Of a stretch of DNA of 64,000 bases, positions 2,866-38,339 are shown in pieces. The first letter of the stretch is position 1. The number at the start of each line of letters is the position of its first letter. Source of the DNA: Chloroflexota bacterium. Its GTDB lineage: Bacteria > Chloroflexota > UBA11872. The stretch spans positions 519,009 through 583,008 of the forward strand of contig OZ244806.1 of NCBI GenBank assembly GCA_965220075.1. The letters are read 5' to 3'. Under the pieces are notes generated by a model that saw only the letters and a program-made list of their open reading frames with translations, was not told the DNA's origin and made no database searches. A program made the translations under genes and the position numbers.

Positions 2866-4176
2866 GTGTCTGATCGTCACGCCATGCCCGAAGTTTCCTC
2901 CGTCCGCTTCGTGCACGCGGCCGACCTGCATCTCGGTTACCGCCAGTACGGACTGGAGGCTCGCGCCCGAGATTTTGCCCGCGCGTTCGATAGCTTGGTC
3001 GCCTACTGCCTGCGCGAGCGGCCCGACTTCGTGGTGCTGGCGGGCGACCTCTTCGATGCCAAGTCGATCGAGCCGGGCACCTACGCTCACGCGGACGCTC
3101 GACTGCAGGAGCTGGCCGAGGCCTCAATTCCGGTGATCGCCGTGGAGGGCAACCACGAGCGCTGGTACCGGCGCGGAGGCCGCTCGTGGCTCTGGCAGCT
3201 CAGCCGTCACCAGCGTCTGCGCCTGCTGCGGCTTCACGATCCGGAGACCGGTCTGTTGACCTGGCAGCCCTGGGAGCCCGCGCGCGGCTTCGGCGCCTTC
3301 ACCGACGTGGGGCCCGTGCGCATGTTCGGTGTGGAGTACCTGGGCGCGCGCCTGGCCTCGGTGCTGCCCGATCTGACCGCCGCCGCGGGCGCCGGCGCGC
3401 CGCGGCATGTGTGGTTCAGAATCGGCGTCCTTCACACCGGCGTCGACGTCGAGTCGCAGTTCGAATTGAGCTCCGGTACCGGCATGGCGCTCGACGAGCT
3501 CCTCCCGCTGCGCGCGGTGGCGGACTACCTGGCGCTCGGTCATGTCCATCACCGCTATGAGCTTCCGGCCGGCGACCCCTGGATTTTCAACCCCGGCTCG
3601 CTGGAGGCGCACAACGTACTCGAGGGGCTGGATAGCGCCGGAAGAGCCCGTGGAATCTTCGATGTAAGCGCCGAGCGCGGCTCGCCATCGAGCTTTCGAG
3701 CGCGTTTCCTTGACGAGGTGATCGCGCGCCGGCCGTTCCGGCGCCTGCTTGTCACCGCCCCGGGGCCGACCAGTTTTGACGAGCTCTATAGACAAGTCGA
3801 GGCCGAGCTGCCCGCGGACGCGCTGGATGAATCGAGCCAGCCGGTAGTCCAGCTGCTGATCCGCGGCCGTCTGGCCTTCCCGCGCGCGCAGTTCGACGAG
3901 CCCCGCCTGCTCGATCTCCTGCAGGAGAGGCTGCGGCCGCTGCACGCGCGCATCACCCTCGACCTGGACGCGGCTCCCGCGATAGGCGTGCACGCGCCCG
4001 CGGGCTCGCGTGCCGACATAGAGCGTGAGGTGGTGCGCGCGCTCATCGCGGCGTCGCCCGAGCACAGTTCGCGCGCCGAGACGCTCGCGCGCCTGGCCCT
4101 GGACCTGAAAGCGGGAGCGCTCCAGGATCGGTCGCCCGAAGACATGGCCGCGCAGGTCGAAGCCGCTCTGGATTGA
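2866..4176 (+). CDS. sbcD: DNA repair exonuclease SbcD (Mre11-type, calcineurin-like phosphoesterase)
   Basis: VRFVHAADLHLGY...VVLAGDLFD...GNHE...GHVH are the metallophosphoesterase motifs I-V. It lies immediately upstream of sbcC. The alternative start MPEV is at 2884. Confidence 0.85.
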   Translation: MSDRHAMPEVSSVRFVHAADLHLGYRQYGLEARARDFARAFDSLVAYCLRERPDFVVLAGDLFDAKSIEPGTYAHADARLQELAEASIPVIAVEGNHERWYRRGGRSWLWQLSRHQRLRLLRLHDPETGLLTWQPWEPARGFGAFTDVGPVRMFGVEYLGARLASVLPDLTAAAGAGAPRHVWFRIGVLHTGVDVESQFELSSGTGMALDELLPLRAVADYLALGHVHHRYELPAGDPWIFNPGSLEAHNVLEGLDSAGRARGIFDVSAERGSPSSFRARFLDEVIARRPFRRLLVTAPGPTSFDELYRQVEAELPADALDESSQPVVQLLIRGRLAFPRAQFDEPRLLDLLQERLRPLHARITLDLDAAPAIGVHAPAGSRADIEREVVRALIAASPEHSSRAETLARLALDLKAGALQDRSPEDMAAQVEAALD

Positions 4177-7245: not shown

Positions 7246-7963
7246 TTGAAGCTCGCCTACGTGCGGCGCTATGCCGAGGTCGTGCGAACCAACTGGTGGA
7301 GCCGCTCACGCCATGAGTTTGCGGGTGCCCTGGCCGCGCGCTCGGGCGACGGCGCTCTTCGATCCGTTCTCGACGTGGGGTCTTTCAATGGCGCGCTGCT
7401 GGAGACGCTCCCCCAGGTTCCCCTCCGCATTGGTGTTGACATATCGAAGGACGCCCTTGCGCTCATACCCGCGCGGCTGCGCTCCCGCGCGGCTCCCCTT
7501 CGCCGACGCTCAGTTCGATGGGGTCATGTGCTTGGACGTGCTGGAGCACATAGCGGACGACGCGGGCGCCGCGGCCGAAATGGCGCGTGTGTTGCGGCCG
7601 GGCGGCGTCCTGGTGCTGGCCGTGCCCGCCTACACGGGGCTTTGGACCTCGCGCGACGTCTATCTGGGACACCAGCGCCGCTATCGGCGCGCGCAGCTTG
7701 AATCGGTTGTCCGGGCGGCCGGCCTCGACGTGGCCTGGTGTACCCATTTCAGCGTGGCCATGGTTGCCCCGCTGCTGGCCTTGCGCGCTCTGGAGTGGCT
7801 CACGCGCCGTACGGCCGCCGCCGCGCCCCGCGCGGGCCAGCTGCGGGCCGGACGCCTGAACGACTGGCTCTATCGGTTCCACACCTGGGAGGCCCGCCTG
7901 GCTCTGCGAGTGCGCCTGCCGGTCGGTTCGTCCATCGCCTGCGTAGCGTGCCAGCCCGTCTAG
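7246..7963 (+). pseudogene. Class I SAM-dependent methyltransferase, apparently frameshifted
   Basis: Frame A (7246..7701) gives the motif-I region VLDVGSFNGALLETL...RIGVDISKDAL. Frame B (7271..7963) gives the post-I and II region LPFADAQFDGVMCLDVLEHIADD...VLRPGGVLVLAVP. The switch lies within about 7440-7500, near gctcccgcgcggctcccctt. Confidence 0.5.
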
Positions 7964-9972
7964 ACGCCTCGGTTCGATCCGGCCCTCTGAAACTCGTAGA
8001 TCAAAACGTCCCCGTCCGGCGCCCGGTGTACCTCGCGAAAGCGGCCGTCGGCCAGCTTGGCCGCGATCTCAGCCCGCTGCCGCTCGTCCATCTCGCGCGG
8101 CTCCACGTAGACGTAGCGAATCCCCAGCACTTCCAGATCGGAGTCGCGCAGCCGCTGCTGCGCCCACCCGTACAGCCGGGCGAACTCTTCGCCCCTGGAT
8201 AGATGGTGGTATCCGTAGGGGATGAATTGACCGGTCTCCGCTGCGATGTAGGCCGTAGTAAGCGGGGATTCACCGTCATAGAGCAGATAGGCGGTCCGGG
8301 CGCCGTGCACTACTAGCAGGCGATCGGACACTTGCGTCTGCGTGCTCAGAAAATCGGCCGTACCTGGCGGGATGCCGGGTTCCGCGCGGTGTGCCTGGGC
8401 CGCCATTCCCGGCCACGCCAGCGACGTCATCAGGAATCCTCCGCAAAGCGCGGCGCCGGCGGTCGCGGCCGCCGCGCCCCACGCGCGCCGCCAGCGCGGC
8501 AGCCGCACGCCGATCTCGGCCGCGGCGATGGCCGCCGCAAGCGCCGCGAAGCTCAGCCCCGCGTGGAGCAGGCGATACTGATCGGCGGCGGAGTGCTCGA
8601 GTCGAAAGACGATCACCACCGCCACGTTCGCCGCGGCCACCAGCGCCCAGGGCGCGGCGTGGGACCGGCCCCGCCGCACGCCGATCCACGCCAGCGTCAG
8701 GGCTAGAATCCAGAGAAGCGGTCCGGCGTCTACCAGCAGCTCGATGCTCGCAATCGGCACGTCGTGCCAGCCCGTCGTCGGCCAGCCAACGAACGGTCCG
8801 GCGCTGTTGTAGCCCCAGCTCGGAAGCTCGCCGAAGTGCACCGTGTTCAGGCTGGGCCGGAGTTGGCCCACGGCCGATTGCGAGCCAACCAACCCGCCCA
8901 GCACGCCGCTGGTTGTTTGGTTGAGCAAGAACGCCGCCGCGCTGGCGACTAGCACGCCGGCCGTGCTCCGCAGCGCCTGGCCGGCGCCCGATTTCCGACT
9001 AAGCCAGCACGCCGCCACAATTCCGGCGGGCACGGTGAACACCAGGAACTCGTTGCTCGCACCCAGATACGTCAGGGCCAACGCGGCCAGCAGCCAGGCC
9101 GCCAGCCCTCCTCTTTGGACCGCGGTCCAAAGCGCCGCCAGCGCCACCAGCGCCGCGATGAAACCGTGCAGTGCGGTGGGGTTGTGGGTCGCCATGGTGT
9201 AAGGCCCCCCCAACAGCAGCCCGCTCCATGCCACCGCGGCGGGGGATTCCACCACCACACCCAGCACGTCGCCCAAGCCCCGCTCGCGAATCGCGGGCAG
9301 AGTGGTCAGCCAGTAGAGCGGCCCCCAGGCGAACGCCAGCAGAGCGCCCCCAATCGCCCAGCGCGGCCTCAGCACGCTTCTCAGCGCACCGGCGGCCGTG
9401 GCCACCGCAACCGCGGCCGTAGCGCCGATTACGTGCGGCATCACGTCGCGCGTTGGCAGCTCCAGCAAATCGATCACGCCGGCCGCCAGGGTGTGCAGCG
9501 TTACCCGGTACTGCAGCGGATCGTTGGGCTCCATCGGGTTGATTACGGGAAAATTCCCCCGCGCGATCGACGTGACCAGCCCGCTGTGCATGTAGAGAGT
9601 TCCCACGTCCGCCCGGCCCAGAGTCCCCTCGTACCAGAACGCCAGCGCGGCCAGATAGGCGAGCAGGCAGGCGCCCAGCAAGGCCGCCGCCGCGCGCGCT
9701 GATTCGCGCCCGGCCGTCGGAACCTGGCCGCGCCGTGCCAGCCATCCGCCGGCCAGGCAGAGCGCACCGGTTACGAGCAGAGCGGCGGAAGCGGGCATGG
9801 CCAGCGGCAGCCACAGCATCGGCAGGCCCAGCGCGACCAGTCCGATCCCCGTGCCCAGCGCGGCGCGGCTCACTGTGCCGGCGGATGGGAGCAGGCGTCC
9901 GGCCAGCGCGATCCCCAGCCACCACGCCGCCCCCAGGCATAGAACCAGGGCGATCAGCCGCAGAACGATCAC
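7960..9972 (-). CDS. Large polytopic membrane protein with a C-terminal soluble domain; candidate GT-C glycosyltransferase
   Basis: 670 aa. About 12 predicted TM helices come first (MIVLRLIALVLCLGAAWWLGIALAG...), followed by a ~150-aa hydrophilic C-terminal domain. It is divergent from a polyprenol-phosphate-type GT2. Confidence 0.55.
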   Translation of the reverse strand: MIVLRLIALVLCLGAAWWLGIALAGRLLPSAGTVSRAALGTGIGLVALGLPMLWLPLAMPASAALLVTGALCLAGGWLARRGQVPTAGRESARAAAALLGACLLAYLAALAFWYEGTLGRADVGTLYMHSGLVTSIARGNFPVINPMEPNDPLQYRVTLHTLAAGVIDLLELPTRDVMPHVIGATAAVAVATAAGALRSVLRPRWAIGGALLAFAWGPLYWLTTLPAIRERGLGDVLGVVVESPAAVAWSGLLLGGPYTMATHNPTALHGFIAALVALAALWTAVQRGGLAAWLLAALALTYLGASNEFLVFTVPAGIVAACWLSRKSGAGQALRSTAGVLVASAAAFLLNQTTSGVLGGLVGSQSAVGQLRPSLNTVHFGELPSWGYNSAGPFVGWPTTGWHDVPIASIELLVDAGPLLWILALTLAWIGVRRGRSHAAPWALVAAANVAVVIVFRLEHSAADQYRLLHAGLSFAALAAAIAAAEIGVRLPRWRRAWGAAAATAGAALCGGFLMTSLAWPGMAAQAHRAEPGIPPGTADFLSTQTQVSDRLLVVHGARTAYLLYDGESPLTTAYIAAETGQFIPYGYHHLSRGEEFARLYGWAQQRLRDSDLEVLGIRYVYVEPREMDERQRAEIAAKLADGRFREVHRAPDGDVLIYEFQRAGSNRGV

Positions 9973-10107
9973 GCACCCCGCCTTTGTGCGCGGTTACACG
10001 CCGCTGCTTTCACAGTCACATGTGCGATTCTCTAGCCTCCGGTCGGATGGCAGGCGCCCCGCGCGCAGTCGGGGCCGCGTGAGCGCCTGGTGCGCTTTGG
10101 AGGATAG

Positions 10108-10854
10108 ATGCGGGACATTTCCATCGCGCTGGTCGTGCCCGCTTTCAACGAGCGCCAGCGCTTGGGCGCGACGCTCGACGCGATCGCGCGGTACGTGGAA
10201 ACCCAGCGCTTGAACATGTCCGTAATCGTGGCAGATGACGGCAGCATTGACGGCACCGCCGATCTCGCCTCCGAGCGCATAGCGCGTATGCCTTACATGG
10301 ACATCGTGAGCCTGGGGTCGCAGCGCGGCAAGGGCGCGGCGGTGCGCGCCGGCGTTCTGGCCGCCTCGGCCGACGTCATCGGGTTCAGCGACGCGGACCT
10401 ATCGACCCCACTGACCGAGCTGCCGCGTTTGATTGAGCCTCTGCTCGGCGACTATGACGTTGCGATCGCTTCGCGCGCGCTCGTGAGCAGTCAGGTCGTG
10501 CGCGCCCAGCCCCTATACCGCCGGTTGGGCGCGCGGGTCTTCCGCGAGCTTGCGCCCGCCCTGGCCGGCCTGCACGGATATTCCGACAGCCAGTGCGGTT
10601 TCAAGTTCTACCGATCCGCCGTGGCGCACGACCTGTACGGCGCCGCGGTCATCGACCGCTGGATGTTCGACGTGGAGGTCTTGCGGCTGGCGCGGCATCG
10701 CGGCTACCGGGTCGCCCAGGTTCCCGTGGCCTGGCGCAACCACCCGGACTCGCGTCTGCGCCTCTCGCTCGATACGTGGCGGATGTTTCGCGATCTCCTG
10801 CGAATCCGGCTACGCTTTTCGCGTGGTGCCTATGGTCCCCCGCGCACGGCTTGA
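10108..10854 (+). CDS. Family 2 glycosyltransferase (polyprenol-phosphate sugar synthase, DPM1/Ppm1-like)
   Basis: ALVVPAFNE...VIVADDGSIDGT...GFSDADLS...CGFKFYR are the GT2 DxD and catalytic motifs typical of dolichol/polyprenol-P-mannose synthases. Confidence 0.8.
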   Translation: MRDISIALVVPAFNERQRLGATLDAIARYVETQRLNMSVIVADDGSIDGTADLASERIARMPYMDIVSLGSQRGKGAAVRAGVLAASADVIGFSDADLSTPLTELPRLIEPLLGDYDVAIASRALVSSQVVRAQPLYRRLGARVFRELAPALAGLHGYSDSQCGFKFYRSAVAHDLYGAAVIDRWMFDVEVLRLARHRGYRVAQVPVAWRNHPDSRLRLSLDTWRMFRDLLRIRLRFSRGAYGPPRTA

Positions 10855-10890
10855 AGAATACGCGCCGGTTTTGCGGCGCCGCGAAGCATC

Positions 10891-11595
10891 GTGAGCGGCG
10901 TGCGCGTGAACCCCGGCGATCCGTTCCCCGACGTCTCGTTGCCGGACGTCCGGACCGGCGAGCAGGTTGCGTTGCACACTTTCTTCGACCGGTCGACCTG
11001 CATATTCGTTTGGGCCTCGTGGTGAGCGTGCCGCGCCCAGCTGCCCGTGTGGCAGCGATACCTCGAAGATCGCGGCGGCGGCCGGCTTGGCTTTGTCAGC
11101 GTGGCGGCCGACGCCCAGGGCCGCAACGCCGCCCTGCCCTGGGTCGGCGCGACGGCGGCGTCATTCCCGACTTTCGTTGACCCGGCGAACCGGCTCGGTC
11201 AGGCGTTCGGCTATCAGGCCATCCCGGTTGGAATCTTCGTGCGCGCGGGCGGCGCCGTGGAGCACGTGCGCGTGCCATTCTCCGTCGAGCGATCCGATGA
11301 CAGGGCGGCGCTGGAGGAATTCATGGCCGGCCGTGTTGCGTCTCCGCCCGCCGGCGGCTCTCTGGACGGCAGCGCGCCGGCGATAGATGGGTTTGCCGAG
11401 GGCGCGGCGGCGCTCGCCGCCGGCGATCGCGAATCCGCTCTGCGCTGCTGGCGCGAGGCGCTGCGCGATGACCCCGCTAACTTCCTCATCAGGAAGCAGA
11501 TATGGGCTGTTGAACACCCCGACAAGTTCTACCCCGCCATCGACCGAGGGTGGCAGGCGCGCGCGCTGGCGCGCGCGCGTGAGCTACCCGCCTGA
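10891..11595 (+). CDS. Thioredoxin-fold TlpA/redoxin-like protein with an in-frame TGA at the first active-site Cys position; candidate selenoprotein (or pseudogene)
   Basis: Manual translation in the frame of the 11047 ORF reads ...PFPDVSLPDVRTGEQVALHTFFDRSTCIFVWASW-TGA(11023..11025)-ACRAQLPVWQRYLEDRGGGRLGFVSVAAD...LGQAFGYQAIPVGIFV. TlpA/ResA homology (F-W-A-S-W-C-x-x-C-R-A-E-x-P; VLGVSVD; AYGV..LPTTF) continues on both sides of the TGA. The track splits the gene at the TGA. Confidence 0.5.
11040..11056 (+). promoter_or_regulatory. Hairpin (gctgcc-cgtgt-ggcagc) beginning 15 nt after the in-frame TGA; SECIS-like candidate
   Basis: A perfect 6-bp stem with a 5-nt loop containing G and U, seen directly in the sequence. 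Confidence 0.35.
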
Positions 11596-11624
11596 GCCTG
11601 ATCGCTTGAGGCGAATCAGACGGC

Positions 11625-12338
11625 TTGTTCCGGGCGGTCCTGATGCCTGATTGGCTGGTCGCGGCGCAGAACGCGCTGCTCGACTTTCTCAACACCTATC
11701 AGTACCTCGGATTGGCGCTTTACGTCGGAATCGAGGAGGCGGGCGTGCCCTTCCCCGTGCCGGCCGACACCGCCATCGTAGTCATGGGCTATCAGGTGTA
11801 CCGCGGAGAGGCCAACCCCGCGTCGGTCATCGCGGTGGTGGTGGGGTCGGCGACTCTGGGCGCCTCGATTCTCTACTGGATTTCGCGACTGGTGGGCGTG
11901 CGGATCATCCGCCGTTTCGAGCGCTTTCTGCGCATCACGCCCGAGCGCCACGCGCGCGCCGAGCGCTGGTTTGCCCGTTACCAGGTTCCCGCCGTCGTGA
12001 TTGGGCGCCTCATTCCCGGTTTCCGGATCGTCATCACGGTCGTGGCCGGCGTGGCGCGCGGCAACTTCCCGCTCTTCGTCATGTCCGCCGCGCTTTCGGC
12101 GCTCATATGGTCGCTCGTGTTCATGTCGCTGGGCTGGGCCTTTGGCGATCAATACGAGCGCGTGCTGGAGGCGGTGCGAGCCGACCCCCGCCTCGCCGCC
12201 GCCGTGGTGGGCGCGATTGTCATCCTGATTGCAGTGGGCGTATGGCTCTGGATACGCCGCCGCGCTAGCCGCACTAGTGAGTTTGAGCCGTACGGCGCCG
12301 CGGACCGGGACGGGACTCCGCCGGATGTCCGCGGCTGA
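11625..12338 (+). CDS. DedA/SNARE-associated (TVP38) family membrane protein
   Basis: YLGLALYVGIEEAGVPFPVPADTAIVVMG...IGRLIPGFRIVITVVAGVARGNF is the DedA signature. An alternative start MPDWLV is at 11643. Confidence 0.75.
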   Translation: MFRAVLMPDWLVAAQNALLDFLNTYQYLGLALYVGIEEAGVPFPVPADTAIVVMGYQVYRGEANPASVIAVVVGSATLGASILYWISRLVGVRIIRRFERFLRITPERHARAERWFARYQVPAVVIGRLIPGFRIVITVVAGVARGNFPLFVMSAALSALIWSLVFMSLGWAFGDQYERVLEAVRADPRLAAAVVGAIVILIAVGVWLWIRRRASRTSEFEPYGAADRDGTPPDVRG

Positions 12339-12343
12339 ACGGG

Positions 12344-12754
12344 TTAGCGGGGTGCCAGCTCGCCGGGCGCCAATCGCCCCCCGCGGCTCACCGCCCGCTT
12401 GATCAGCGGAAGCCAGGTCGACTCGCCATCGCGCCGCCAGTCGACTTCCGGCTGCAGCTTCATCAGCCGGTCCACCCGTCCCAACCGCTCGGCCCGCTCG
12501 TAGATCCGCAGCCAAACGCACGGCAGGCTGGGGTCCGTTTCGCACATTCCATATATGTCCGTGCCGCCGCACGGGCCGTCGCGCAGACCTTTAGGGCATG
12601 CCATCGGGCATATGAAAGCCGTGTCCTGCAAGATGCACTGCCCGCACATGCGACACCCAAAAAGCGGCCGCTTGACCATCCGCTCCACAAGCGTGAAGGC
12701 TTGTTCCGGCGCCTGGCGAATCGCTCGCGTCAGCGTGCGCTGGGTGATTGACAT
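12344..12754 (-). CDS. Small Cys-rich protein with 8 Cys; possible metal/Fe-S binding, MTHFR-C-terminal-domain-like
   Basis: FGCRMCGQCILQDTAFICPMACPKGLRDGPCGGTDIYGMCETDPSLPC gives the pattern C-x2-C-x2-C-x8-C-x3-C-x7-C-x7-C-x7-C. The family name is from memory and not verified. Confidence 0.45.
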   Translation of the reverse strand: MSITQRTLTRAIRQAPEQAFTLVERMVKRPLFGCRMCGQCILQDTAFICPMACPKGLRDGPCGGTDIYGMCETDPSLPCVWLRIYERAERLGRVDRLMKLQPEVDWRRDGESTWLPLIKRAVSRGGRLAPGELAPR

Positions 12755-16546: not shown

Positions 16547-17581
16547 GTGGAACCGGCGGCCGTGAACCTGCCCGACGGCAAACTGCCCGCCGGCATGCTG
16601 CGGGCTTTCCTAGCCTCGTTTCCCGCCCCGCACGAGTCCGTGCTGGTAGGCGGGGCGGTGGGCGAGGACGCCGCCGTGATCGACCTGGGCGGGCCGGAGC
16701 TGCTGGTCGCCACGACCGACCCGATTACCTTCGCCGGCGCTGACGTGGGGCGTTATCTGCTGGCCGTAAACGGCAACGACCTGGCCACCACCGGCGCCCT
16801 CCCGCGCTGGCTGCTGGCCACCGTCCTGCTGCCCTCGGGAGTGTCGCCCCGGGAGGCCGCGCCCGTTCTCGAGAGCCTTCGCGCGGCCTGCTCGCAGGCG
16901 CGTGTCGATCTCGTAGGCGGTCACACCGAGGTGACGCCCGGCGTAGCGCGCACGATTGTCGTCGGCTGTCTGCTGGGGACCGTGGCCCGGGACCGGCTTA
17001 TCAGCACCGCGGGCGCGCGCGTGGGGGATGCCCTGCTTCTCACGGCCGGCGTCGCCATCGAGGGCACCGCAATCCTGGCCACCGAGCACGCGCCCGCATT
17101 GCGAGCCGCGGGTCTGGCCGCCGCGGATATCGAGCGCGCGGCCGGCTGGCTGGACCAGCCCGGCATATCGGTGCTGCCCGCCGCTCGCGCGCTGCACTCC
17201 ACCGGCGCGGTTCACGCTCTGCACGATCCCACCGAGGGCGGGCTGGCGACGGCCCTGCATGAGCTCGCCGAGGCGGCCGGAGTTGGGCTGGAGGTCCGGC
17301 GCGACGCCGTGCCGGTGCTGCCCGAGTGCGAGCGCATCTGCGCGGCGCTCGGGCTCGACCCGTTGGGACTGCTGGCCTCGGGCGCCCTGTTGGCCGCACT
17401 GGACCCGGCCGAGGCGCCGTCCGCCCTCCAGCGCCTCGATCAGGCCGGGATCGCGGCCGCCGTTATCGGTCGCATCGTGCCCCGCCGCCAGGACCTCACG
17501 GCTCTGGAACGCGGCGGGCGCGCGCCGCTTCCCGTCTTCGATCGCGACGAGCTGGCCCGGTTCCTTGAAACGCGCGGCTAG
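16547..17581 (+). CDS. AIR synthase-related protein (PurM-like superfamily, HypE-like paralogue)
   Basis: GEDAAVIDLGG...LVATTDPITFAGADVGRYLLAVNGNDLATTGALPRWLL...VDLVGGHTEV are PurM-like N-terminal motifs. There is no HypE C-terminal PRIC motif and no SelD Cys/Sec loop. Confidence 0.55.
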   Translation: MEPAAVNLPDGKLPAGMLRAFLASFPAPHESVLVGGAVGEDAAVIDLGGPELLVATTDPITFAGADVGRYLLAVNGNDLATTGALPRWLLATVLLPSGVSPREAAPVLESLRAACSQARVDLVGGHTEVTPGVARTIVVGCLLGTVARDRLISTAGARVGDALLLTAGVAIEGTAILATEHAPALRAAGLAAADIERAAGWLDQPGISVLPAARALHSTGAVHALHDPTEGGLATALHELAEAAGVGLEVRRDAVPVLPECERICAALGLDPLGLLASGALLAALDPAEAPSALQRLDQAGIAAAVIGRIVPRRQDLTALERGGRAPLPVFDRDELARFLETRG

Positions 17582-37880: not shown

Positions 37881-38339
37881 TCAGCTGAGAAGGCGCAGCG
37901 CCTCTTCAGGCGTCAGGCGGCCTATGTTCGTGGTGCTGTAGACCGAGGACATCACGCGGTGCTCCGCGTCCAGAACGAACCCGGTGGCTTGGAAGGCGCG
38001 TTGCTCCTCATACATATAAGCGCCTAGCCGATCCGGCGCGGACGGGTATTCGAGCTCGCAGACCAGCGGCACGTCCAGACGGTGCGCGGCGGCGAACGCC
38101 GCCGTGTCCGCCAGCGAGTCCGTGGAAAGCGCGACCACCTGCGCGCCGATCGCCTCGAAAGCGTCCAGCAGGTAGTTGTAGGCCGCCAACTGGCGGCGGC
38201 AATGGCTTCACCAATGGCCGCGGTAGCAGATCACCACGGCCGGCTTGGGTTCGAGGTCCGCGGGGATCGTTATCACCGATCCATCTGCGCGCCGACCCGT
38301 GATAGCCGGAAACGAATCGCCGGGAACTAGCTGTCCCAT
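37881..38339 (-). CDS. Peroxiredoxin-like (AhpC/TSA-redoxin fold) protein with in-frame TGA in a U-x-x-C motif; candidate selenoprotein
   Basis: Manual minus-strand translation from ATG 38339: MGQLVPGDSFPAITGRRADGSVITIPADLEPKPAVVICYRGHW-TGA(38210..38208)-SHCRRQLAAYNYLLDAFEAIGAQVVALSTDSLADTAAF...LVCELEYP...GRLTPEEALRLLS. The frame is continuous with the listed 102-aa ORF. Its fold layout matches AhpC/TSA (beta-hairpin, VV.FYP-like strand, active site, ...GISTDS...). Confidence 0.6.
38182..38197 (-). promoter_or_regulatory. Hairpin gccgcc-aguu-ggcggc beginning 11 nt after the in-frame UGA; SECIS-like candidate
   Basis: A perfect 6-bp GC stem with a 4-nt loop containing G and U. The spacing equals the canonical 11-nt spacing of bacterial SECIS elements. 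Confidence 0.4.

What the first reader, a model, noticed from the sequence alone, without database searches (positions are those of the whole stretch)
10891..11595. Second thioredoxin-fold (TlpA/redoxin-like) gene interrupted by an in-frame UGA at the first active-site Cys, with unusual U-x-C spacing
In one continuous frame the sequence reads FVWASW-UGA-ACRAQLPVW, and clear TlpA/ResA-type homology lies on both sides (PFPDVSLPDV...; LGFVSVAAD; AYGV-like QAFGYQAIPVGIFV). The UGA (11023..11025) replaces the first Cys of the W-C-x-x-C-R-A-E motif. Only one residue (Ala) separates it from the second Cys, where two are expected. A hairpin (gctgcc-cgugu-ggcagc) starts 15 nt downstream. A second UGA-at-catalytic-Cys case in the same window makes chance less likely and supports Sec usage in this organism. 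The shortened U-x-C spacing is unusual. It could indicate a non-canonical active site, a 3-nt deletion, an assembly error, or a decaying pseudogene.
Basis: partly seen in the sequence, partly recalled or inferred. Interest (0 to 1): 0.8.

Follow-up and report, generated by a model that had tools for sequence, protein, structure and literature searches.

The report
Known U-x-C TlpA-like selenoprotein gene
The in-frame stop codon is real and almost certainly encodes selenocysteine in a thioredoxin-fold redox protein, and the short Sec-x-Cys active site is the hallmark of an already described selenoprotein family, not an error or a dead gene.

Summary
Window 10891-11595 (+) is one 234-codon gene.

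The U-x-C spacing is a family trait. In 82 related loci from Chloroflexota and other phyla the same codon is TGA and exactly one residue precedes the Cys. Cys-containing relatives read WASW-C-x-C, and canonical TlpA reads WCGPC.

The hairpin 11040-11056 is a bacterial SECIS. It is encoded by L-P-[V/G]-W-Q and shows compensatory changes at synonymous sites, with no broken pair in Sec forms.

An independent assembly is 100% identical and two sister strains keep the TGA. UGA is otherwise the commonest stop in the window. A second selenoprotein gene (UxxC Prx-like, 37881-38339, minus strand) lies in the same window.

[quoted passage not shown] NCBIfam holds a related model (NF041054 WAxxUGC_long), which this shorter, signal-less form hits below cut-off.

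Sec machinery genes could not be checked beyond the window. Verdict: a real but ordinary new member of a known kind.

The parts
10891..11595 (+). Complete selenoprotein gene: 234 codons plus stop. The start at GTG 10891 is uncertain by a few codons (alternative GTGs at 10900 and 10906).
   Evidence: tblastn matches in 80 genomes cover query residues 1/6-234 across the TGA. Gene callers split it into 55-aa and 182-aa ORFs in public assemblies.
10912..11289 (+). ResA/TlpA-like thioredoxin-fold (Redoxin/AhpC-TSA) domain, residues 8-133. It includes the invariant Pro112, the candidate cis-Pro.
   Evidence: Pfam. Best NCBIfam hit is NF041054 at 105 bits. An AF2 model of the Cys homologue P0006 matches ResA, DsbE and TlpA structures with TM 0.84-0.89. 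Invariant columns are listed.
11023..11025 (+). UGA read as selenocysteine (Sec45). This is the position of the N-terminal nucleophilic Cys at the N-cap of helix alpha-1.
   Evidence: TGA at this column in 83/83 Sec-type loci. Cys at the same column in P0006, P0012, P0013, P0024 and P0046-58. Ser in L081. In the model, the equivalent Cys46 immediately precedes helix 47-61.
11029..11031 (+). TGC, Cys47, the presumed resolving Cys of the U-x-C centre.
   Evidence: The TG[CT] codon is invariant in the 80-sequence alignment.
11040..11056 (+). Bacterial SECIS hairpin. The stem is 11040-11045 paired with 11051-11056 and the apical loop is 11046-11050 (C-G-U-G-U). It is encoded by (Q)-L-P-V-W-Q-(R).
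   Evidence: Leu codon pos1 against Gln codon pos3: C-G 65, U-A 12, U-G 5, mismatches 0. Pro pos3 against Val/Gly pos3 is Watson-Crick in 46/46 cases where Pro pos3 is not A. Structure pairs 91.6% versus 82.1% shuffled (0/500). RNAalifold predicts the same stem.
11338..11592 (+). C-terminal helical TPR-like region (residues ~150-234). It contains the near-invariant tail F-L-I-R-K-Q-I-W-A-V-E-H-P-D-K-F-Y-P-A-I-D-R-G-W-Q at 11482-11556.
   Evidence: Weak TPR_2 hit at residues 168-197. Invariant P195, R201, Q203, W205, P210, F213, W221, Q222. The homologue model is all-helical with pLDDT above 90 here.
11593..11595 (+). The gene's genuine stop codon, also UGA but with no SECIS after it.
   Evidence: TGA ends 24 of 49 putative genes in the window.
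37881..38339 (-). Second selenoprotein gene in the window, used as supporting evidence for Sec usage. It is a Prx-like AhpC/TSA protein with a U-S-H-C (UxxC) motif. The TGA is at 38210-38208 and the hairpin GCCGCC-AGUU-GGCGGC lies downstream.
   Evidence: AhpC-TSA 4.9e-17 over residues 6-129, spanning the TGA. Hairpin.

Best explanation
This is an intact gene for a 234-residue selenoprotein of the 'UGC-containing TlpA/Prx-like' family, from an uncultured high-GC bacterium (closest relatives are Chloroflexota MAGs).

How the UGA is decoded: during translation the hairpin 11040-11056, about 15 nt after UGA 11023, presents a G-U dinucleotide in its apical loop. It would recruit SelB.GTP.Sec-tRNA(Sec), so the UGA is read as Sec45 instead of stop. 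The gene's own terminal UGA (11593) has no such hairpin and terminates.

What the protein is: it has a ResA/TlpA-type thioredoxin fold. Sec45 sits at the N-cap of helix alpha-1, the canonical nucleophile position. Cys47, two residues on, would resolve it as a strained selenenylsulfide (U-x-C, one residue shorter than CxxC). A C-terminal TPR-like helical domain with a near-invariant RKQIW..HP..F....WQ tail probably binds the partner or substrate.

Location and role: this short form has no signal peptide, so it likely acts in the cytoplasm as a thiol/selenol-disulfide oxidoreductase. The substrate is unknown.

Shown here: the TGA, its conservation, the Cys homologues, the hairpin covariation and the fold. 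Inferred: actual Sec insertion, the catalytic roles of the two residues, localisation and function.
For: - TGA conservation: TGA is at the identical column, followed by x-C-R-x-Q-L-P-[V/G]-W-Q, in 83/83 Sec-type loci (the window, 82 others, several phyla). Conserved protein lies on both sides.
- Cys homologues: they read WASW-C-x-C (P0006, P0012, P0013, P0024, and distant myxobacterial and actinobacterial P0046-58). Canonical P0049 reads WASWCGPC.
- SECIS: compensatory covariation occurs at synonymous sites with zero mismatches. Leu uses only CUG or UUG, and CAA (Gln) occurs only with UUG (12/12). The Pro3:X3 pair is complementary in 46/46 cases when Pro3 is not A. Shuffle and slide controls are exceeded.
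- Relaxation in non-Sec forms: the Pro3:X3 rule is broken in 3/3 Cys forms, and the motif is lost in the one Ser form.
- Sequence is not an artefact: an independent Logan assembly is 100% identical over 1731 nt. Strains L001 and L090 keep the TGA with no indels.
- UGA is a normal stop here: it ends 24 of 49 putative genes.
- A second selenoprotein gene is in the window.
- Fold and family: Pfam Redoxin/AhpC-TSA span the TGA. The best NCBIfam hit is NF041054 'ResA-like WAxxUGC motif-containing protein'. The AF2 model of the homologue (pLDDT 93) matches ResA/DsbE/TlpA.
- Literature: the family is listed with a UGC motif in PMC2398784 and PMC13188914.
Against: - No selA, selB, selD or tRNA-Sec lies in the 64-kb window. 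The rest of the genome could not be searched, so the machinery is assumed, not shown.
- The AIRS-family gene at 16547-17581 is not SelD (below cut-offs).
- Single-sequence folding of the 48 nt after the UGA is not significant (z = -1.2). The case rests on comparison.
- Much of the 5-bp stem is forced by the amino acids L-P..W-Q, which are also kept in Cys forms. Only the synonymous-site covariation is independent evidence.
- Substitutions between strains (2 synonymous, 5 non-synonymous) are too few to show purifying selection.
- The score against NF041054 is 105 bits against a cut-off of 300, and x is Ala rather than Gly.
- There is no experimental evidence for Sec insertion or for any activity.
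Confidence: 0.92

Rival explanations
1. Recently inactivated gene. The lineage has lost, or is losing, Sec decoding, so UGA 11023 now terminates. The 44-aa and 182-aa ORFs would be remnants of a former selenoprotein gene.
For: No Sec machinery was found in the window. Between-strain changes are 5 non-synonymous to 2 synonymous. Gene callers report two ORFs.
Against: The SECIS is intact and obeys every family rule. All family-invariant residues are present. Three strains have no indels or extra stops. A second selenoprotein gene with an intact UxxC motif and hairpin lies in the same window. Losing Sec decoding would normally be followed by Sec-to-Cys replacement or by decay.
Confidence: 0.05
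2. Sequencing or assembly artefact. A true TGC/TGT was miscalled as TGA, and/or 3 nt were dropped from a normal W-C-x-x-C.
For: None beyond the unusual appearance of the site.
Against: An independent Logan assembly of another run is 100% identical over 1731 nt. Two sister-strain long-read contigs carry the same TGA and the same spacing. 82 other genomes show TGA-x-Cys at this site.
Confidence: 0.01
3. Two separate genes, or UGA decoded as a standard amino acid (an alternative genetic code) rather than as Sec.
For: Public annotations call two ORFs. Many database entries start at the codon right after the UGA.
Against: Neither half is a complete thioredoxin fold, and the Redoxin HMM and the structure need both halves. 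The downstream 'start' codon is simply residue x (GCG = Ala here, which is not a start codon). UGA ends 24 of 49 putative genes in the window, including this gene and its upstream neighbour, so there is no genome-wide reassignment.
Confidence: 0.02

Closest known systems
[quoted passage not shown]
   Same: AhpC-TSA/TlpA (cd02966-type) thioredoxin fold. One Sec in a U-x-C motif with the Cys two positions later. Many Cys (CGC) homologues. Predicted from metagenomes, function unknown.
   Different: Here x is Ala (UAC). In the relatives collected, x is G in 50, A in 23 and another residue in 9. The papers' example sequence could not be compared directly, and they do not describe the TPR-like tail or the SECIS anatomy.
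NCBIfam NF041054.1 WAxxUGC_long, 'ResA-like WAxxUGC motif-containing protein' (equivalog, 354 positions)
   Same: It is the best-scoring NCBIfam model for the window protein and for every relative tested. It shares the W-A-x-x-U-x-C motif, and the alignment covers the redoxin domain and part of the C-terminal region.
   Different: Scores are 105-165 bits against a cut-off of 300. The window protein is 234 aa and lacks the roughly 80-residue N-terminal part of the model and any signal peptide. It is a sister clade, not a member of that equivalog.
ResA / TlpA / CcmG(DsbE) / StoA CxxC thiol-disulfide oxidoreductases
   Same: Same fold (Foldseek TM 0.84-0.89 to 1su9/1st9 ResA, 3gl3 DsbE, 4txv TlpA). 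Same W-C...C-[RK]-x-[EQ]-x-P context and a conserved cis-Pro-type Pro.
   Different: The active site is U-x-C rather than C-x-x-C (loss of the Pro of CGPC). Sec replaces Cys. The Chloroflexota short form has no membrane anchor or signal peptide. There is an added TPR-like C-terminal domain.
E. coli fdhF-type bacterial SECIS (SelB-binding hairpin)
   Same: It is a hairpin inside the coding region just 3' of the UGA, with a G-U dinucleotide in the apical loop about 20 nt downstream. In fdhF the essential G23/U24 sit in a 17-nt stem-loop 11 nt from the UGA (PMC8659212). Here G and U are nt 25 and 26 counted from the U of UGA.
   Different: The stem is shorter (5-6 bp). There is no 5'-side bulged U17; instead a U lies 3' of the loop, either unpaired or paired with an A. 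The second loop base can be G (GG). No Rfam model matches. Binding to SelB is untested.
C-X-C redox motifs (e.g. CGC peptide and thioredoxin lacking the active-site Pro, Woycechowsky & Raines 2003; cited from my own memory, not checked here)
   Same: Two redox-active chalcogen residues separated by a single residue in a thioredoxin-type active site. They are expected to form a strained 11-membered ring with a less stable oxidised form.
   Different: Those are engineered or peptide Cys-Cys systems. Here the first residue is Sec and the motif is natural and ancient in a whole clade.

Membership tests
Bacterial Sec-encoding (selenoprotein) gene | In-frame UGA aligned with Cys in homologues | tested here: met
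   P0006 reads WASW-C-T-C. P0012, P0013 and P0024 read WASW-C-G-C. P0046-58 read WASWCGC at the same column.
Bacterial Sec-encoding (selenoprotein) gene | UGA conserved in orthologues, with conserved coding sequence on both sides | tested here: met
   83/83 Sec-type loci carry TGA. tblastn matches span residues 1/6-234.
Bacterial Sec-encoding (selenoprotein) gene | bSECIS hairpin immediately downstream with G(U) in the apical loop | tested here: met
   Stem 11040-45 paired with 11051-56, loop CGUGU. Covariation with 0 mismatches. 0/500 shuffles reach the observed value.
Bacterial Sec-encoding (selenoprotein) gene | selA, selB, selD and tRNA-Sec present in the genome | not testable with these tools
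   None is in the 64-kb window or in the fetched loci. A second selenoprotein gene in the window is indirect support.
Bacterial Sec-encoding (selenoprotein) gene | Selenium actually incorporated at the UGA | not testable with these tools
   Needs 75Se labelling or mass spectrometry.
UGC-containing TlpA / Prx-like selenoprotein family (PMC2398784, PMC13188914) | AhpC-TSA / TlpA-type thioredoxin fold | tested here: met
   Pfam Redoxin 7e-9 and AhpC-TSA 7e-7. Fold match to ResA/DsbE/TlpA via the homologue model.
UGC-containing TlpA / Prx-like selenoprotein family (PMC2398784, PMC13188914) | U-G-C motif (Sec and Cys separated by one residue) | tested here: met
   The spacing is met. The middle residue is Ala here, and in relatives it is G in 50, A in 23 and another residue in 9.
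UGC-containing TlpA / Prx-like selenoprotein family (PMC2398784, PMC13188914) | Sequence relatedness to the published exemplar (MDE0950781.1) | not tested
   The exemplar sequence cannot be retrieved with these tools.
NCBIfam NF041054 WAxxUGC_long (equivalog) | Whole-protein score at or above the curated cut-off of 300 bits | tested here: not met
   105 bits for the window protein and 131-165 bits for six relatives. It is the best-scoring family but below cut-off.
NCBIfam NF041054 WAxxUGC_long (equivalog) | Long architecture (354-position model with an N-terminal region before the redoxin domain) | tested here: not met
   The match starts at model position 84. The window protein has only about 7 residues before the domain.
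ResA/TlpA/CcmG CxxC thiol-disulfide oxidoreductases | C-x-x-C active site | tested here: not met
   U-A-C, with one residue fewer.
ResA/TlpA/CcmG CxxC thiol-disulfide oxidoreductases | Extracytoplasmic location through an N-terminal anchor or signal peptide | tested here: not met
   There is no room for a signal peptide or anchor: only ~7 residues precede the domain in the window protein and in most Chloroflexota relatives (most too short for the hydrophobicity window). A few long forms (L037, L074, L067) have one.

The most novel reading that the evidence does not exclude
The roughly 235-aa, signal-less U-x-C proteins with the TPR-like RKQIW..HP..F..WQ tail could be a distinct, still uncurated cytoplasmic selenoprotein subfamily. 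No NCBIfam model reaches its cut-off for them. It is found in many uncultured Chloroflexota genomes (mostly Dehalococcoidia and SAR202). Its strained Sec-x-Cys ring may give chemistry different from CxxC reductases, for example oxidase- or isomerase-like. Its SECIS is dual-coded with the protein motif L-P-[V/G]-W-Q, so that the RNA requirement restricts the amino acid at that position.
Probability: 0.3. Interest if true: 0.45.

Novelty: new member of a known kind. Interest (0 to 1): 0.25.

Why it matters
- **Annotation:** the gene is split or truncated in public assemblies. Most database entries for this family begin at the codon after the Sec codon. The active site of a protein widespread in Chloroflexota is therefore missing from protein databases.
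- **Sec use:** with the second selenoprotein gene in the window, it suggests this uncultured lineage decodes UGA as Sec.
- **SECIS descriptor:** the covariation data give a clean, testable description of this family's SECIS. That could improve automatic selenoprotein calling.
- **Limits:** it does not open a new biological question, because the U-x-C TlpA/Prx-like family has been in the literature since 2008.

Tried and rejected
- **Conserved neighbours:** clustering all ORFs of 83 loci found no neighbour shared beyond closely related genomes, so there is no functional hint from context.
- **Sec machinery:** tblastn with E. coli SelA, SelB and SelD against the window and all loci gave only an AIRS-family gene (16547-17581). 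It is below the selD, hypE and thiL cut-offs and lacks the SelD N-terminal Cys/Sec motif, so it was rejected as SelD. ARAGORN found no tRNA in the window.
- **Rfam:** nothing at gathering thresholds in the window and only chance-level hits around the hairpin.
- **Literature:** a search for 'WAxxUGC' gave nothing and a first broad selenoprotein search was unhelpful.
- **Single-sequence folding:** the 48 nt after the UGA do not fold significantly better than shuffles.
- **Strain-level changes:** 7 substitutions are too few to be informative.
- **Database names:** a cluster look-up gave no source names or accessions.
- **Rejected readings:** pseudogene, assembly error, split genes and an alternative genetic code (see rival explanations).

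Full report
**1. Observation**

The + strand frame that opens at GTG 10891 reads MSGVRVNPGDPFPDVSLPDV...STCIFVWASW, then TGA (11023-11025), then ACRAQLPVWQRYL.... It continues without another stop to TGA 11593-11595. That is 234 codons, with the in-frame UGA at codon 45 and Cys at codon 47.

With U written as C, Pfam Redoxin (7e-9, residues 8-133) and AhpC-TSA (7e-7) align straight through the UGA. A weak TPR_2 match lies at residues 168-197.

G11040-C11045 pairs with G11051-C11056, the loop is CGUGU, and the stem begins at the 15th nt after the UGA. On its own it folds at -10.8 kcal/mol (z = -2.9). The 48 nt after the UGA as a whole are not significantly structured (z = -1.2), as expected in 68% GC DNA. 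The composite pattern TGA-N15-YTGCC-NGKNT-GGCAR occurs once in the window and in none of 100 shuffles.

**2. The U-x-C spacing is a family trait**

A protein search returned 66 relatives. Many of them begin 'M/V-C-R-x-Q-L-P-V-W-Q'. Those are ORF calls that start at the codon right after the position of the UGA.

The DNA of three such hits shows ...W-A-[ST]-W-TGA-x-TG[CT]-CG... with a conserved N-terminal half upstream.

A scan of one genome per species found 195 relatives, of which the best 80 were kept. They are mostly Chloroflexota, Dehalococcoidia and SAR202. Armatimonadota, Poribacteria, Rubrobacter, Limnochordia and Acidobacteriota are also represented.

In 83 of 84 sequences (the window, L001-L003 and 79 of the 80 loci kept) the codon at this column is TGA. 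It is followed by exactly one residue and then Cys-Arg. The middle residue is G in 50, A in 23 and another residue in 9.

The one exception, L081 from Acidobacteriota, has Ser there and has also lost the L-P-x-W-Q motif.

Full-length Cys forms read WASW-C-T-C (P0006) and WASW-C-G-C (P0012, P0013, P0024). More distant myxobacterial and actinobacterial 'TlpA/redoxin' proteins also read WASWCGC. A canonical relative reads WASWCGPC. The one-residue spacing is therefore an ancient loss of the active-site Pro that is fixed in a whole clade. It is not a lesion in this genome.

**3. Not an artefact, and UGA is a normal stop here**

- An independent Logan assembly (L089) is 100% identical over 1731 nt.
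- Sister strains L001 (99.2% identical, no gaps) and L090 keep the TGA, the spacing and an open frame.
- TGA terminates 24 of 49 putative genes in the window, including this gene and its upstream neighbour. There is no genome-wide reassignment of UGA.

**4. The hairpin is a SECIS**

Counting from the UGA, the stem C18-U19-G20-C21-C22 / G28-G29-C30-A31-G32 is encoded by Leu-Pro ... Trp-Gln. The amino acids force much of it, so the informative sites are the synonymous ones.

- Leu is only CUG (66) or UUG (17), never one of the four other Leu codons.
- Leu position 1 against Gln position 3 gives C-G 65, U-A 12 and U-G 5, with no mismatch. CAA occurs only together with UUG (12/12).
- The third base of the Pro codon and the third base of the following Val/Gly codon are Watson-Crick complementary in 46 of 46 cases where the Pro base is not A (C-G 14, G-C 15, U-A 17).
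- When the Pro base is A (36 cases), it can instead pair with the U of UGG.
- The residue between Pro and Trp is Val or Gly (GUN or GGN) in 82 of 83 sequences. The loop therefore always shows N-G-[U/G]-N-U.
- The single exception (L061, AUA) also has a truncated downstream frame.

On the 80-sequence alignment, 91.6% of cells pair against 82.1% in shuffles (0/500). The covariation score is 0.208 against 0.080 (0/500). Slid controls are far lower. RNAalifold independently predicts the same 5-bp stem.

In the three Cys forms whose DNA was fetched, the 5-bp stem persists but the Pro3:X3 complementarity is broken in all three. This is a small sample, but it is consistent with relaxation of the apical part.

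The geometry resembles the E. coli fdhF SECIS: a G-U dinucleotide in an apical loop about 20 nt after the UGA, inside the coding region. In fdhF, G23 and U24 are essential (PMC8659212). No Rfam model matches.

**5. Sec usage in the organism**

No tRNA gene and no selA, selB or selD lie in the window. The AIRS-family gene at 16547-17581 scores below the cut-offs for selD, hypE and thiL, and it lacks the SelD N-terminal motif. The machinery is thus not shown, and the rest of the genome could not be searched.

Indirect support is strong. A second gene in the window (minus strand, 37881-38339) reads ...VICYRGHW-UGA-SHC-RRQL.... AhpC-TSA scores 4.9e-17 across that UGA, and a GCCGCC-AGUU-GGCGGC hairpin lies just downstream.

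**6. What the protein is**

An AlphaFold model of the Cys homologue P0006 has pLDDT 93 and pTM 0.87. Its N-terminal domain superposes on ResA, DsbE, TlpA and StoA structures with target-normalised TM of 0.84-0.89. The Cys equivalent to Sec45 immediately precedes helix 47-61, which is the canonical nucleophile position. The C-terminal half is all-helical and TPR-like.

The family has a near-invariant tail, I-R-K-Q-I-W-x-x-x-x-P-x-x-F-...-W-Q. In the window it is at 11482-11556.

Most Chloroflexota members, including this one, have only about 7 residues before the domain and no hydrophobic N-terminus. A few long forms (Poribacteria, Armatimonadota) carry a signal-like segment or an extra N-terminal domain.

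Gene neighbourhood is not conserved across the family. In this genome the gene sits between a GT2 glycosyltransferase and a DedA/UptA-like gene, with gaps of 36 and 29 nt.

My inference, not shown: this is a cytoplasmic selenol/thiol-disulfide oxidoreductase. Sec45 attacks and Cys47 resolves through a strained selenenylsulfide. The helical tail would select the partner.

**7. Comparison with what is known**

NCBIfam's best hit for this protein and for every relative tested is NF041054 'ResA-like WAxxUGC motif-containing protein'. The scores are 105-165 bits against a cut-off of 300, and the match starts at model position 84.

The GOS selenoproteome paper lists 'Prx-like (UGC-containing)' with pfam00578, motif UGC, 46 Sec sequences and 855 Cys homologues (PMC2398784).

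The kind is therefore known. This gene is a short, signal-less relative for which no curated model reaches its cut-off.

**8. Verdict**

The gene is real, intact and almost certainly Sec-encoding (confidence about 0.92). The spacing is a family hallmark, and the finding is ordinary for a specialist. Novelty: new member of a known kind. Interest: 0.25.

Two things remain open: direct proof of the Sec machinery and of Sec insertion, and the function of the U-x-C centre and its TPR-like tail.

Noticed in passing
window 37881-38339 (-), TGA at 38210-38208: A second selenoprotein gene. It is a 152-aa AhpC/TSA (Prx-like) protein reading YRGHW-U-SHC-RRQL (UxxC). A GCCGCC-AGUU-GGCGGC hairpin lies shortly after the UGA, and an AGGAGG-like ribosome-binding site precedes the ATG.
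   Followed up: partly
window 16547-17581 (+): An AIR-synthase-family protein (AIRS + AIRS_C) with sub-threshold similarity to HypE (128/251 bits), SelD (91/125) and ThiL. It lacks the SelD N-terminal Cys/Sec motif. Its function is unclear and it is not the selenophosphate synthetase.
   Followed up: partly
window 7960-12754: Local gene context. A 670-aa multi-pass membrane protein with no Pfam or NCBIfam hit (7960-9972, minus strand) is followed by a GT2 polyprenyl-phosphate-sugar-transferase-like gene (10108-10854), the selenoprotein gene and a DedA/UptA-like VTT-domain gene (11625-12338). Gaps on either side of the selenoprotein gene are only about 30 nt. An MTHFR_C-like DUF5981 gene (12344-12754, minus strand) comes next. 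The arrangement is kept in sister strains but not across the family.
   Followed up: partly
L002 3588-4247 (+): Directly downstream of the family member in this 2.9-Mb contig is a 219-aa ORF hitting PF07355 (GRDB, the glycine/sarcosine/betaine reductase B family). It is possibly another selenoprotein gene truncated by the gene caller.
   Followed up: no
L081 ~3000-3670; L061 ~3100-3360: Two variants of the family. In L081 (Acidobacteriota) Sec is replaced by Ser (WASW-S-L-C) and L-P-x-W-Q is changed to L-L-D-W-Q. In L061 (SAR202) the TGA is kept but the loop codon is AUA (Ile) and the downstream frame ends after 81 codons, so it may be a decaying copy or a sequencing error.
   Followed up: partly
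L045, L072, L021 (C-terminal ends of the family gene): Members from Rubrobacter, Limnochordia and Armatimonadaceae carry an extra C-terminal extension ending in a C-G-P-D-G-C motif (for example ...VCGPDGCPIPQ). This second potential redox or metal site is absent from the window protein.
   Followed up: no
public protein collection (hits P0001-P0045): Most database entries for this family are truncated. They start at the codon after the Sec codon, or further downstream. In L001 the gene is called as 55-aa and 182-aa ORFs. The active-site half is systematically missing from protein databases.
   Followed up: yes
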